Assembly: GCA_964016885.1 (NCBI GenBank)
Contig: OZ024746.1
Coordinates: 37,510,001 to 37,574,000, forward strand
Direction of reading: 5' to 3'
Origin: Eledone cirrhosa
Lineage: Eukaryota
DNA: 64,000 bases
A program made the position numbers and the translations under genes. The notes beneath the pieces are model-generated. The model made no database searches and was not told where the DNA came from. It worked only from the letters and a program-made list of their open reading frames with translations. Of the stretch, positions 3,385 to 63,887 are shown in pieces. Within the stretch, counting starts at the first letter, position 1. Each line of letters starts with the position of its first letter.

Positions 3385-3575
3385 GTAATAATAATAAATT
3401 TGAAGACTAAAATCCAAAGAGGGCTCGATAAGGATAAATATTTAAGAACCGTTGAGCAAATATTTCTTAAAATAACAGATTAAAGTTTAAGCAAAGATTC
3501 TGTTTCAGAAGATCCCGTTAAGGGTGAAAGCAGGGATTCTTTGCTTAAACTTTAATCTGTTATTTTAATAAATAT
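3385..3575. mobile_element. Asymmetric fold-back mini-element, family A, flanked by (TA)n
   Basis: TTAAAATAACAGATTAAAGTTTAAGCAAAGA (~3467-3497) is inverted at ~3538-3568; left arm has ~75 bp extra tail; homologous to 16131-16413 and 38769-38797. Confidence 0.75.
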
Positions 3576-3587
3576 ATATATATATAT

Positions 3588-3680
3588 AATTGTTTCTACT
3601 TTAGGCACAAGGCCAGCAATTACCCAGTGCATTACTAGTACTTTATTTTATCGACCCTGTAAGGATGAAAGGCAAAGTCA
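3588..3680 (-). mobile_element. SINE 3' half (same family as 2289)
   Basis: Reverse complement of TGACTTTGCCTTTCATCCTT...GCCTTGTGCCTAAAGTAGAAACAATT. Confidence 0.85.
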
Positions 3681-4199
3681 TGAAGAGAAAATGCTGTCTC
3701 TATCGAGAAGAGATAATATGTGGAATACATATAAAAATGACAAAACTCATCTCTGGAACAATCGTTGTAGCAGCTAAATATTGTAAAAGACAGCGATCAA
3801 CGGTCAATTGAGAGACAATCCACAAGCTGGGTGAGATGCAGAGGAAACACAGCAATAACCGAGAGAAGAGGAGGGCAAGGAGATGTTTGTTGGCGCACAC
3901 ATTTTACTGGAAGATGAAATAAAGAAAGGTGATGTGAAAAATAAATTCACCCGCAAGCATCTTCACCCTTATCAGGTCTTATGTGTGTGTGCGCTATGTG
4001 TGTTTGTATGTGTGTGTGTGTATGTGAGTATGTGTGATAAGCAAAGAGCACGGATAGAAAGACGAAAGGAAACAAAGAAAATGAAAATAATGGGTCAGAG
4101 ACTTCAAGCTGTGATGTCTCTTCTAAATAGAAAGCTAAGCCTTGCTATGTTGAAGTTAATTGAAAGAACGGAGACGAAGCGGGAGTATAGTTAGACTTC

Positions 4200-4614
4200 G
4201 TTACAGCGGATGGCGTCTAGGAGACCCTATGTTGTCAGAAAGATTCAGCTCCTTGCCAAACCTCCCAGAAGATGTAAAAAATCTAGCCATATTTGAATCC
4301 TATGGATTATTTGGTCTAGGGCGTGTTTGAGAAGGACACCACCCGCACTTTCTGAAACACTAAGAACCAGCTGATCGAGAGGAGTAAGAACGGTTTTGGA
4401 GTTCTCCCCAGTGACACTGTAAAGGCTGCATGTGCCAATTTTCGGAGACGGGTCAACGCCGTGGAAGGTGCTGACGGTCGCTTATTTGTGTAAAATTTTT
4501 GTTTTTATTGTTTTCATCTTTAGGCCTCTTTCTAAATTTTATCTGAGATATTCACTTTTTTTCCTTCAAGAAAAAAAAAAAAGAATCTGTGAAATGTAGC
4601 CCAAACACCCTGTA
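4200..4614 (+). mobile_element. Tc1/mariner transposase C-terminal remnant with right end
   Basis: Translates PYLNPMDYLV*GVFEKDT (SPDLNPxD motif) and AACANFRRRVNAVEGADG; ends CACCCTG-TA, typical mariner TIR end plus TA. Confidence 0.7.
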
Positions 4615-4938
4615 TATAAAAGGTGTGTTAGAAGGCGAATACCTAATTGAACAAATCAAGTTCAAGATGTACACCTATAAATACCGAAAATAGAAGTTAT
4701 TACCAACCTAGTAGTTGAATTAAAATACAGTTAAATAGCATTCACACATATTTCTCTCTGTTTCTTTAACTCTCTCTCAGTCTCTCTTTCTCTCTATCTC
4801 TCTTTCTCTCCCTCTCTTTCTAAATAAATGTCTGTTGATCTATGTGTGTGTGTGTGTGTGTGAGTGTGTGCACATGTGCACAACGAAATTTATGCTATAC
4901 AAAATGATATACAGAAAATGAGAAACACTAAGAACATT

Positions 4939-6362
4939 TTTTCAGCGAATAAATGGAATATCGTCGTGATATCATATATGTTGCACTGAAAGACCACGTT
5001 TCATAAGGTACAGTTGTTTTTGTATTGGCTCCTAATGTATTGAAAGTGATAAAGAGGGTGGCAATAATATGGGATATTCGAATTTGAAAGTTCAATTACA
5101 TATTATTACATAATATTTTTGTATTTACATGTATCTAAATTTTCTTCAAATTACAAATATAGAGTTGTATACAAGGATGTTTAATTAAACGATAGAGCCA
5201 TGGATATATATATATATATATATATATATATATATATATATATATATATATATATATATATATATATATATATATATATATATATATATATATATATATA
5301 TATATATATGTATATATATATATATATATATACATACAAATTTACTACGTACACATGTATATATCGTATATATATATATATATATATATATATATATATG
5401 TATATATATATATATATATATATATATATATATTATATATTATATATATATTATATATATATTATATATATGTATATATATATATATATATATATATATA
5501 TATATATATATATATATATATATATATACACACATATATATATATATATATATATATATATATATATACATATATCTACATACATATATCTACATTTTCT
5601 TTAAATTACAAATATAGAGATGTATGCAAGAATGTTTAATTAAATGCTCGAGCCAAGGAGATATATGCATATATACATAATATATATATATACATACAAA
5701 TTTACTACGTACACACACACACACACACACACACACATATATATATATATATATATATATATATATATATATATATATATATATATATATGTATATATAT
5801 ATGTATATATATATATATATATATATATATATATATATATATATATATATATATATATACATATATATATATATATATATATATATATATATATATATAT
5901 ATATATATATATATATATATATATATATATATATACATATATATATACATATATATATATATATATATATATATATATATATATATATGTGTGTGTGTGT
6001 GTGTGTGTACGTAGTAAATTTGTATGTATATATATATATATATGTATATATATATGTATGTATATATATATATTATATATATATGCATATATCTCCTTGG
6101 CTCGAGCATTTAATTAAACATTCTTGCATACATCTCTATATTTGTAATTTAAAGAAAATGTAGATAGCAGTAAATACAAACATATTATGTAATAATATGT
6201 AATTGAACTTTCAAATTCGAATATCACATATCATTGCCACCCACTTTATCACTTTCAATAGATTAGGAGCCAATACAAAAAAAAACTGTACCGTATGAAA
6301 CCTGGTCTTTCATTGCAACATATGTGATATCACGACGATATTCCATTTATTCGCTGAAAAAA
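4939..6362. repeat. Nested inverted duplication around (TA)n/(CA)n tracts
   Basis: 4939-5205 is a diverged inverse of ~6090-6362; 5587-5740 is a near-identical inverse of ~5985-6166. Confidence 0.85.
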
Positions 6363-61257: not shown

Positions 61258-61800
61258 AGTTTTAATATAGATGAGATTCTACAGGACTAGAACTGTTTCA
61301 TTCATTAGAAATCATCAGGAATCTGGGTATCAAAAAATGAGTATGGTATATATAGATCTCTACAAGTGGTAGGAGAGGGTGGGGAGTGGGATGGGTGTAG
61401 GTCATTGGTTGATAGAATTCATTAAAAGCAAATTCTACAAGGCTATAGTTTATTTTAATTTTTAGAGTTACAAAGGCAGAAAGAATTCTATAAACAGGTT
61501 CAGGATGGCATGCCAATCCTTATTATTAAGTTTCTCTTGAGCTAACAGGTGTCTATAAAATCAGAGGGTGTCAGTCATGATAGATAGATTTAAAGGAAAG
61601 GGAGATTATTTAAAAGCTAATTCTTTACTAAGTGACAAAGTTTTAGAATTATGTAGACAAATTCAAAATATTGAGTGCAATCTTACAATTGTCCTCAAAT
61701 TTCTCTTAAACTATTCAACTATATGCCAAAATCAACAGACACATTCACAAAACATACTCACTCATACACTCGCGCGCACCCATAGACGGACCCACATACA
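61258..61800 (-). mobile_element. PLE 3' UTR/pseudo-LTR (family D), tail-less copy
   Basis: Inverse homolog of 28440-29003. Confidence 0.8.
61274..61324 (-). ncRNA. Type I hammerhead ribozyme (family D)
   Basis: AGATTC-CTGATGA-TTTC-TAAT-GAAT-GAAA-CAG..CTG-TA-GAATCT. Confidence 0.75.
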
Positions 61801-61980
61801 CATATACATATATATATATATATATATATATATATACATATATACACACACATACATATAAACATATATATACATATATACACACGTATATATATATATA
61901 TATATATATATATATATATATATATATAGAGAGAGAGAGAGAGAGAGAGAGAGAGAGAGAGAGAGAGAGAGAGAGAGAAA

Positions 61981-63065
61981 AGATGAAAATAAAATGAAAG
62001 TGCTTTTTTTAAAAAAAGGGAATTTATTAGGTATTGACATATGTTTCTGTAACAGACGGAATACCTATGTATCGCTGCTTGCGTAATCATATAATGTTAG
62101 CAAGTATTCGATAGCAAATCAGTTGTCACTTCTTCAGAGATTTTGGATAAATTGGAAAAAAACAGAAAAATTGAATTATTTATATTAGTTGTAATAGAGG
62201 AAGAAGACAGGGGATAGTATATGACAGATGGTAATTCAATTTACTGCTAAACAAGTATATAAAGGGTTTCTAATGAAAATACAATGAGTAAATGGTTTAT
62301 TTTATCTAAATAAGAATTTTTGGGAGTGCCTATTTTAATCTATACTTGACCAATTGAACAATGGATAGGGCTGGTCATTTGGTGTAGTAGTATTAATTAT
62401 AAAGTGTCAATTAATGAAGGGGGAGATTTCGATTGCTCCTGAATAACATCAATGCTAGTAGCCAGCTGGTATATGCATTAGGGAATTGAATTAAGAAATC
62501 TCATTTTATCTATAGCAGTTTATATTAAATGGTAAATAATAGAAGAGTTGATAGAATTAAGACTAATAGAGAATGTTAATATGTATTTTGACAATCAAAC
62601 GGAGATGGAGACAGGCGTTCAATCCTGGTAGTATTTGTAACATGAAAATGTAGATTTTAAGCGATGGTTACAGTATAACGATCGCTCTATTCTGTTATTT
62701 AATAAAATGTTTTTGGATATCATAATACAAAATAATTCCATTTACATAATTTACAAAATTCCTGTCCGTGGGAGTATGGAGGGGAAGACACTATTATATC
62801 GCATTTTAGGTGAAATTGTTGGTTATTTTAACGCAGCTGCCAAGCCTTGTCTGCGAGTGTTGATAAATAACGCTGGTTTTCATGTTTTATCGAGTAACGA
62901 TGTCTATAAAGGCGTGATTTGAAGGAGGTGGCTGTAGAACCCACATAGTACCACTTCTGGCTATCTGATTCGATTGTACATTTGTATATTATGTTGCGTT
63001 CAAGACACTGATTGTTCAACGGACACATTCCTGGTTGGACACAGTTACAGTTATAATTTTGCGTT
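61981..63065 (-). mobile_element. 5'-truncated PLE: GIY-YIG fragment (~62630-63065) plus 3' UTR (family E)
   Basis: CNCVQPGMCPLNNQCLERNIIYKC..YYVGSTATSFKSRL; stop/frameshift afterwards; 3' end shared with 53410 and 63662 copies. Confidence 0.85.
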
Positions 63066-63155
63066 GTATATATATATTTATTTATATATATATATATATA
63101 TATATAAAATAAAGTTAAATAAAAGTCAAATGATTAAAATTTAGCTTCGTTTATT

Positions 63156-63210
63156 ACTGCTATATATATTTCAGTGACAGCCATCTTTGGCTGTGACCTC
63201 TTCAGGCAGT
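63156..63210 (-). ncRNA. Minimal type I hammerhead ribozyme
   Basis: Minus strand ACTGC-CTGAAGA-GGTCACAGCC-AAAGAT-GGCTGTCACT-GAAA-TATATA-TA-GCAGT. Confidence 0.88.
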
Positions 63211-63550
63211 TTGAATTAGTATGGTATAGACAAGTACATATGTTGTTTAGGTGTATGATATTGTCAATACTCTGATATGCCCAGTTCCTTGTTGGGTTGT
63301 TAATTCACTGGGGAACTGGAGTCATATATATATATATATATATATATATATATATATATATATATATACATATACACACATACATACATATACACAAATA
63401 TATACATATACATATACATATATATACACATACATACACACACACATACATATGCATATACACACATACACACACATACATATATTTATACATATATATA
63501 TATATATATATATATATATATATATATATATATATATATATATATATATA

Positions 63551-63887
63551 TTTCAGGTTATCAATAATATAGTGATAATATATCGTTACGTTAGAGATGA
63601 ACAGCGTACGTGCACGTTTGCTCAACGAGTATAAATTATATTCCGGAGAAAATGTAGAAAGGATGAATATAAAATGAAAGTGCTTTTTTTAAAAAGGAAT
63701 TTATTAGGTATTGACATATGTTTCTGTAACATACAAAATACCTATGTATCGCTGCTTGCGTAATCATATAATGTTAGCAAGTATTCGATAGCAAATGTAT
63801 AATCAGTTGTCACTTCTGCAGAGATTTTGGATACATTGGATAAAAATCAGAAAAATTGAACTATTTATATTAGTAATAGAGGAAGAA
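63551..63887 (-). mobile_element. Family E PLE 3' end with ~110-bp tail (63551-63660)
   Basis: 63662-63887 matches 61982-62205; extra tail abuts (TA)n. Confidence 0.78.

What the first reader, a model, noticed from the sequence alone, without database searches (positions are those of the whole stretch)
3385..63887. One structural rule across unrelated families: head-to-head fold-backs with one tailed arm and one arm ending at a fixed internal site
Seen in family A (3385-3575, 16131-16413), the array and large element (16437-17710, 29148-35950), family C (41781-42103, 27911-28013), family B (43001-43334, 53815-54082) and family E (53400-53630). Family D shows tailed (28440-29074) and tail-less (61258, 16071-16118) ends. 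In each family the short arm stops at about the same TA-like internal position and runs into (TA)n, while the other arm extends ~50-110 bp further; the inner 5' breakpoints vary. The 6.8-kb element and the 430-bp minis share both endpoints (TTAATATYGTA; 87-bp tail). Known: inverted pseudo-LTRs and an optional 3' tail are described for Penelope. Inference: both nicks of a palindromic (TA)n target prime reverse transcription, one at the RNA 3' end and one at a programmed internal site, possibly on two RNAs held together by the palindromic hammerhead stem III. This would be an obligate two-ended, twin-priming-like integration route.
Basis: partly seen in the sequence, partly recalled or inferred. 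Interest (0 to 1): 0.8.

Follow-up and report, generated by a model that had tools for sequence, protein, structure and literature searches.

The report
Penelope elements copy from two sites
Six families of Penelope-like jumping genes in this animal genome often sit as two back-to-back copies, one ending at a fixed "short" site and the other at a fixed "tail" site 59-109 bases further on. This is likely because both cut strands of the (TA)n target start copying one RNA at two marked sites; the one-tail layout is known, but its near-strict pairing and the repeated site mark were not found in the papers searched.

Summary
All six families are Penelope-like elements inserted in (TA)n. Four have Hydra-clade proteins, one looks Neptune-like, and one has no linked ORF.

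Arm 3' ends fall at two fixed sites, short (S) or tail (T), in 497 of 518 arms. Of 148 joined head-to-head pairs, 143 are S/T, including 31 of 31 bystander pairs.

The T end is also internal: tandem copies read through it into leader and ATG in five families. Pairing is not obligate: 53 single arms have TA on both sides. The hammerhead stem III is not the cause.

New here: in L, E and A a motif (TA-N4-10-CTC...GAG) follows both S and T. It was predicted, then found, for A. Arms share lineage variants (family L 73 of 77, 7 expected), either arm can own the inner loop, and 16 T arms are tail-only.

Best reading: twin priming at two marked internal sites of one RNA, probably by a protein dimer (0.6). 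The one-sided tail, two internal start sites and two-strand extension are already published.

The parts
3383..3497 (-). Family A tailed (T) arm; 3' end runs into (TA)n
3502..3575 (+). Family A short (S) arm with degenerate hammerhead core; 3' end runs into (TA)n
16070..16121 (+). Family D short (S) end fragment
16123..16195 (-). Family A S arm
16252..16413 (+). Family A T arm (tail about 16323-16413)
16437..16866 (.). Family L mini fold-back, unit 1 (T arm on -, S arm on +)
16914..17343 (.). Family L mini fold-back, unit 2; same centre as unit 1, likely a tandem duplicate
17385..17710 (.). Family L mini fold-back, unit 3; own centre and own variants shared by both arms
24341..29071 (+). Family D element: Hydra-type RT + GIY-YIG ORF 24341-26389, TA-rich 3' UTR, hammerhead with full stem III (about 28940-28995), S site about 29002, T end 29071; no inverted partner found
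27908..28014 (.). Family C insertion nested in D: 17-bp tail tip (-) joined to an S arm (+)
29148..32653 (-). Large family L element, S arm: one unit from the leader (just after the T site) through the broken ORF to the S site
32629..32653 (-). Family L leader copy of the site motif (TA-N7-CTC...GTTGAG) that follows the T site in tandem copies
32658..35952 (+). Large family L element, T arm: 5'-truncated RT-EN ORF 32865-34229, 3' UTR, pLTR, 89-nt tail
35755..35820 (+). Family L type I hammerhead motif with minimal palindromic stem III
   Evidence: core read by pattern; the lowest-energy fold gives stem II only
35863..35890 (+). Family L S site and the motif copy that follows it (TA-N5-CTC...GTTGAG)
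41781..42103 (.). Family C fold-back: T arm 41781-42025 (-), S arm 42027-42103 (+)
43001..43335 (.). Family B fold-back: S arm from 43001 (-), T arm to 43335 (+)
53404..53632 (.). Family E: S arm 53404-53540 (-) joined to a tail-only T arm 53554-53632 (+); the arms do not overlap
53812..54087 (.). Family B fold-back: arm with partial tail (-) and S arm (+)
61258..61928 (-). Family D S arm, unpaired
61976..63067 (-). Family E S arm, unpaired
63550..64000 (-). Family E T arm (runs on past the window end), unpaired

Best explanation
These are Penelope-like retroelements in (TA)n whose back-to-back arms end at two fixed internal RNA sites, S and T, likely because both nicked target strands prime reverse transcription on one element RNA, one at each site. 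Steps: (1) Shown: S and T are both internal to the tandem unit, lie just upstream of the ORF start, and both carry a TA. (2) Shown in L, E and A: the same short motif (TA-N4-10-CTC...GAG) follows both sites; C has AATATCG at both. (3) Inferred: each motif is a docking site for one subunit of a protein dimer, so tail length is the spacing of the two docks. (4) Inferred: the two cDNAs run upstream independently, the T cDNA displacing the S cDNA where they overlap, and stop at random or at the RNA 5' end. (5) Inferred: their free 3' ends are joined by end joining with short microhomology or filler bases, giving a head-to-head pair. If one cDNA aborts, a single S or T arm results.
For: Endpoints: 497 of 518 arms at S or T. 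Pairs: 143 of 148 S/T; 31 of 31 bystander pairs and 54 of 55 youngest pairs; both outer ends TA-flanked in 124 of 148. Independent arms: T owns the inner loop in 49, S in 53, equal within 10 nt in 40 of 142; 16 T arms are tail-only. One source: lineage variants in both arms 73 of 77 in L (7.1 expected) and 70 of 87 in C (20.9 expected); in L, C, B and E no pair is discordant at two markers. Inner ends coincide more than chance: 34 of 127 vs 13.8, and 5 of 33 long pairs vs 0.8. T is internal. Motif: 6 of 9 sites vs 20 of 1243 TA sites in element bodies; the A leader was found by a pattern asking only for CTC, and GTTGAG plus the ATG followed. Longer TA runs near the ends are not used. Published in vitro work: both strands nicked and extended, two internal start sites bounding the tail, dimer predicted (PMC11167929).
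Against: No step is tested biochemically here. Shared variants cannot separate one RNA from two RNAs of one locus, or from conversion between arms. B shows no excess of shared variants (5 of 26 vs 5.0) and A a weak one (17 of 36 vs 8.7); A's main discordant site traces to my query's bias. Overlapping arms of up to 3 kb need strand displacement, which is assumed. Three T/T pairs (L270, L194, one random block; all tandem or multi-segment) and two S/S pairs exist. The motif fails the strict test at D_S, D_T and B_S; the S-versus-T similarity is significant in L, weak in E, not significant in D or C. The putative hairpins do not fold better than shuffles. No leader was found for B. The published element showed no difference in start site between strands.
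Confidence: 0.6

Rival explanations
1. Two RNAs, usually from the same locus, are held in an asymmetric protein complex; one is primed at S and the other at T.
For: It needs no strand displacement for long overlapping arms. Same-locus RNAs would also share variants. T/T pairs with tandem arms fit easily.
Against: It gives no reason why two equivalent RNAs pair S with T in 143 of 146 cases. Coincident inner ends in long arms (5 of 33 vs 0.8) point to one template end. The stem III palindrome is missing or the core dead in several families.
Confidence: 0.2
2. One priming, then fold-back or self-priming makes a hairpin intermediate, and the endonuclease cuts it at S or T (published proposals: self-priming on an antisense template; EN-mediated resolution).
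For: 40 of 142 pairs have near-perfect palindromic centres. The arms share variants. Proposed in PMC3846280 and PMC8557442. It may explain part of the symmetric class.
Against: A hairpin predicts that one arm type always contains the other. In L, E and C, T owns the loop in 32 pairs and S in 30; 16 T arms hold only tail, so the S arm cannot be copied from them. Reverse transcription starts at both tail boundaries in vitro.
Confidence: 0.13
3. Both arms were tailed, and one tail was lost later by deletion or slippage between an internal TA and the flanking (TA)n.
For: S sites carry 2-5 nt of TA-like sequence next to unstable (TA)n. A few ends fall mid-tail.
Against: The youngest pairs are 54 of 55 S/T, not T/T. 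Longer TA runs nearby (9 nt in L, 7-8 nt in the A tail, 12 nt in B) take 0 of 106, 0 of 70 and 0 of 54 ends.
Confidence: 0.02
4. The fold-backs are assembly chimeras or chance neighbours of separate insertions.
For: The genome is dense in these families, and separate copies often share one (TA)n run.
Against: The arms are joined without a TA spacer, differ by 0.6-4% from each other, share lineage variants and stop at family-specific sites in 120 separate stretches.
Confidence: 0.02

Closest known systems
Hydra clade of Penelope-like elements (Craig et al., PMC8557442)
   Same: C-terminal GIY-YIG, RW[R/K] and DKT motifs, CxCX5C linker, (TA)n insertion, hammerhead in the pLTR. [quoted passage not shown]
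   Different: Tails here are 63-109 nt, not 30-40. Units are 3.0-3.8 kb with TA-rich 3' UTRs. The hammerhead core is non-canonical in A, B and E. No pair count or site motif appears in the passages read; the paper credits the tail to EN resolution.
PAc (Poseidon, green anole) in vitro system (Frangieh et al., PMC11167929)
   Same: Two internal start sites bound the tail; both strands are nicked and extended; AT-rich target; sequence 3' of the sites is required; hammerhead cleavage is not needed; dimer predicted.
   Different: It does not link the two sites to the two arms of inverted insertions, and it reports no homology between primer and site. Here both sites carry a TA, lie upstream of the ATG, and are used one per arm.
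Penelope of Adineta vaga (PMC3846280)
   Same: Head-to-head inverted pLTRs with a tail on one of them and palindromic junctions.
   Different: That paper infers self-priming on an antisense RNA; tail-only arms and S-owned loops here contradict a simple hairpin.
L1 twin priming (recalled, not read)
   Same: Both target nicks prime on one RNA and the two cDNAs are joined inverted.
   Different: In L1 the second site is opportunistic and the arms do not overlap; here both sites are fixed and the arms usually overlap.

Membership tests
Penelope-like elements (EN+) | Single ORF with RT followed by GIY-YIG endonuclease | tested here: met
   YRDD/YVDD RT motif and C-terminal YIG/YVG in L, D, E, C ORFs; A by tblastn to the D protein. 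Pfam gave only one weak RVT_1 hit in 9 proteins. No ORF was linked to B.
Penelope-like elements (EN+) | Partial tandems forming pLTRs, inverted 5'-truncated copy, optional tail | tested here: met
   Tandem read-through copies in L, D, E, A, C; inverted pairs.
Penelope-like elements (EN+) | Hammerhead motif in the pLTR | tested here: inconclusive
   Canonical core in L, D and C; CAGAAGA in 55 of 55 A and 43 of 46 B copies; E has no GAAA after stem II. The Rfam scan found no hammerhead. Activity untested.
Hydra clade (A, D, E, L) | RWK-type motif, DKT, CxCX5C linker | tested here: met
   RWR and DKT in A, D, L; CxCX5C in D, E, L. Among the D protein and 117 relatives: RWK/RWR 113 and DKT 106 of 118; CxCX5C 110 of 117. 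Features taken from PMC8557442 section 11.
Hydra clade (A, D, E, L) | Insertion into (TA)n | tested here: met
   124 of 148 pairs (all six families) have TA at both outer ends.
Hydra clade (A, D, E, L) | Groups with named Hydra families in an RT tree | not testable with these tools
   No named reference sequences came back (no names).
Neptune clade (family C) | CX2-5CxxC linker before a C-terminal GIY-YIG with CCHH; placement in an RT tree | tested here: inconclusive
   C has a CX4CxxC linker, DKS, and 20% identity to D; no tree was built. The label 'Neptune-like' is my reading of the paper's description.
Naiad/Chlamys | N-terminal endonuclease | tested here: not met
   The endonuclease lies C-terminal in all ORFs read.
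L1-type twin priming | Non-overlapping inverted arms with an opportunistic second site | tested here: not met
   The second site is fixed; only 16 of 142 pairs have non-overlapping arms.

The most novel reading that the evidence does not exclude
Penelope-like elements use programmed twin priming as a normal route. The RNA carries two tandem protein docks (in the Hydra clade TA-N4-10-CUC...GAG). A protein dimer binds both, and each subunit extends one nicked target strand from its own dock. The long-known 'tail' is simply the distance between the docks, and the inverted pLTR is the second cDNA. The PAc RNA drawn in PMC11167929 Fig. S1 also holds a short motif twice, 34-36 nt apart (machine-read text), so the rule may cover the whole class.
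Probability: 0.4. Interest if true: 0.75.

Novelty: new variant of a known kind. Interest (0 to 1): 0.55.

Why it matters
How Penelope-like elements integrate, and why they form inverted repeats with a one-sided tail, is named as an open task in PMC8557442 and left partly open in PMC11167929. The genome counts here rule out simple fold-back and later deletion, tie the two in vitro start sites to the two arms, and name a short RNA motif that can be deleted or moved. That makes the question testable with an existing assay. An RT complex that writes on both target strands from set RNA sites would also interest those building retroelement-based gene insertion tools.

Tried and rejected
The Rfam scan gave only microsatellite-driven microRNA hits and no hammerhead. 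The first family E search found nothing; other queries worked. Hairpin folding of the six S+/T+ stretches was not better than shuffles (z -1.1 to +0.4), so I claim a sequence motif, not a proven stem. No B leader appeared among the first 100 of 303 matches. Exact junction microhomology could not be called reliably; only BLAST overlaps in 13 L junctions were compared with a null (mean 3.5 vs 1.9). The RNA run search gave contigs only, which cannot show RNA ends; nothing was laid. No homodimer model was obtained, so the dimer rests on the published prediction. No empty orthologous sites were examined. Two look-ups of earlier scan findings returned nothing. A T/G difference between arms at A position -37 first looked like two templates; 42 of 42 arms from other loci have G, so it most likely reflects my query picking rare T copies. 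L339's inverted S arm is about 950 nt from the tandem copy and separated by other sequence, so it was not counted.
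Full report
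Setting. The window lies in a 3.0-Gb animal genome rich in (TA)n. That it is an octopus is my guess from recall. It holds several broken RT + GIY-YIG frames.

Observation. All listed structures are present. The large element is a head-to-head pair: an S arm 29148-32653 on the minus strand and a T arm 32658-35952 on the plus strand. Family E at 53404-53632 shows no self fold-back because its arms do not overlap: an S arm is joined to 77 bp of tail only. One B copy (53812) has a partial tail.

Genome-wide endpoints. I searched the genome with tail-free core queries, 30 loci per family, and with two tail-containing queries, then fetched longer stretches. Only the 40 best candidates per search are scored, so anchors lean to young copies. 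178 of 180 core anchors end at S or T (some are two arms of one insertion). In the merged 1.10 Mb (217 stretches), 497 of 518 arms of at least 85% identity end at S or T: L 112/113, A 100/105, C 73/77, D 71/75, B 59/65, E 82/83.

Pair types. Of 148 head-to-head pairs with at least 80% family coverage, 143 are S/T, 1 T/T, 2 S/S and 2 S plus a part-tail. I dropped 19 candidates below 80% coverage: 14 S/T, 1 T/T, 1 S/S, 3 S/part-tail. Two window array units are probably one event. Pairs that no query aimed at are 31 of 31 S/T, and the youngest are 54 of 55. In 392 kb taken at arbitrary places I count by eye 7 S/T pairs, 2 pairs of T with a short end at -18 (a diverged D-like subfamily), 1 four-segment T/T, and about as many single arms. 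Where one arm is a tandem, 7 insertions are S/T and 2 are T/T; for three of the seven I had predicted the far end before fetching it, and one such prediction failed (L194).

Not obligate. The TA test is loose, and D and B carry TA runs in their 3' UTRs, so 53 may be high. Clean single arms exist, for example L242, L258, L249 and L264.

The arms are separate cDNAs from one source. In 142 S/T pairs the T arm reaches further inward in 49, the S arm in 53, and both stop within 10 nt in 40; 16 T arms start inside the tail. For L, E and C, which have near-full references, the split is 32/30/21. A single cDNA folding back cannot give this. Arms of one insertion differ less than arms of different insertions (L 0.9% vs 3.4%, C 2.6% vs 5.9%, E 0.6% vs 1.1%, B 4.2% vs 5.5%). 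Lineage variants sit in both arms in 170 of 232 cases against 43 expected; B shows no excess. Inner ends coincide in 34 of 127 pairs (13.8 by permutation) and in 5 of 33 long pairs (0.8; p 0.0004). Among 22 asymmetric L junctions, 13 overlap (mean 3.5 nt vs 1.9 null) and 9 have filler.

T is internal. In tandem copies the tail runs straight into a leader and the ATG: L 3 loci, D 1, E 5, A 17 of 17 distinct loci read, C 7 loci (its start codon was not pinned down). So the tailed arm need not start at an RNA 3' end. Both sites carry a TA, but longer TA runs close by take no ends, so base pairing alone does not pick the site.

A repeated site mark. In L and E the stretch TA-N5-7-CTCC...GTTGAG follows both S and T (noticed after the fact). 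For A, whose S site has TA-N4-CTC...GAG, I searched for tail end + N2-9 + CTC. This gave 728 matches, many counted twice, nearly all of the listed ones the same leader. Unasked, most go on to GTTGAG or a close variant, and all 17 distinct loci read reach an ATG of the ORF. The descriptor fits 6 of 9 sites and 20 of 1243 TA sites in element bodies; the stricter form fits 5 of 9 and 0 of 1243. D_S has CTC...TTGAG out of register with a TA, D_T has CAC...GTG, and B_S has CTC without GAG. C has AATATCG at both sites and nowhere in 2.7 kb of body, though its alignment score is not significant. The four Hydra-type families are related, so these are not independent draws. Folding does not support a stable hairpin.

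Hammerheads. L, C and A have minimal stem III sequences that would need a dimer (recalled from the hammerhead literature). D has a full intramolecular stem III. A and B have CAGAAGA cores, most A copies also lack the U at the cut site, and E is degenerate. All six obey the rule, and arms nearly always run through the cut site. The ribozyme is not the cause.

Mechanism. Shown: two fixed internal ends, one per arm, independent inner ends, a common source, and a repeated mark in three families. Inferred: double nicking of (TA)n, a dimer on two docks of one RNA, strand displacement where arms overlap (PLE RTs lacking RNase H is recalled), and end joining of the two cDNA 3' ends. I give this 0.6, two same-locus RNAs 0.2, hairpin plus endonuclease resolution 0.13.

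What is known. [quoted passage not shown] PMC8557442 (passages and section 11) says the tail is often at one end only and defines the Hydra clade. PMC11167929 (main text and start of methods; two supplement PDFs gave little text) shows two internal start sites bounding the tail and extension of both strands. I read part 1 of 5 of bioRxiv 2026.07.22.740005; it did not bear on this. Seven searches found no pair count, twin-priming model or repeated motif for these elements. Older subscription papers (Arkhipova 2006; Evgen'ev and Arkhipova 2005) and the figures of the papers above could not be seen and may say more.

Verdict. The structure is real and of a known kind, and most ingredients are published. 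The near-strict S/T pairing, the evidence against fold-back, and the duplicated site mark are new to me and make the mechanism directly testable. Interest 0.55.

Noticed in passing
window 29148-32653: The S arm of the large element starts exactly at the first base after the T site, so it is one unit minus the tail. Other S arms (L281, L283) run through the upstream T site, so this may be chance.
   Followed up: partly
window 16412-17736: Three fold-back minis in tandem, split by (TA)n. Units 1 and 2 share a centre; unit 3 has its own. This looks like both duplication and repeat insertion at one microsatellite.
   Followed up: partly
L260:688-996: The centre of an L pair is filled with about 300 bp of short repeats copied from the element's own sequence at the truncation point, like repeated template slipping.
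   Followed up: no
L035, L040, L074, L097, L100, L241, L267, L280, L300 (family D-like minis): Both arms start at about -50 to -67, the 5' edge of the hammerhead, not at its cut site. Many L minis start at -150 to -188.
   Followed up: no
L336, L344, L350, L330, L348 (family A): Short internally deleted tandem copies (leader plus a few codons joined to the pLTR) recur, suggesting non-autonomous A subfamilies.
   Followed up: no
random block from L398-L399, about 7874-10645: A family C insertion of four or five segments with three inversions, T at both ends, and a 10-bp duplication inside one arm.
   Followed up: partly
window 4937-6362: A further inverted repeat around long TA runs, from a family not covered by the finding.
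   Followed up: no
window 21618-23544, 58804-60198 and 62828-63133: Further Hydra-type RT/endonuclease frames; the first two are not assigned to families A-E or L.
   Followed up: no
window 2237-2474, 3565-3680, 10932-11137, 15307-15503, 47989-48177: A 190-bp dispersed repeat family, unrelated to the fold-backs, often beside (TA)n.
   Followed up: no
window 35968-36007: A perfect 40-bp palindrome next to the T end; the same family flanks several other loci (L258, L095, L317).
   Followed up: no
PMC11167929 supplement 1: The drawn PAc RNA has GAAAG and ACAACA twice, 34 and 36 nt apart, close to its tail length. Read from machine text; positions of the start sites were not visible.
   Followed up: no
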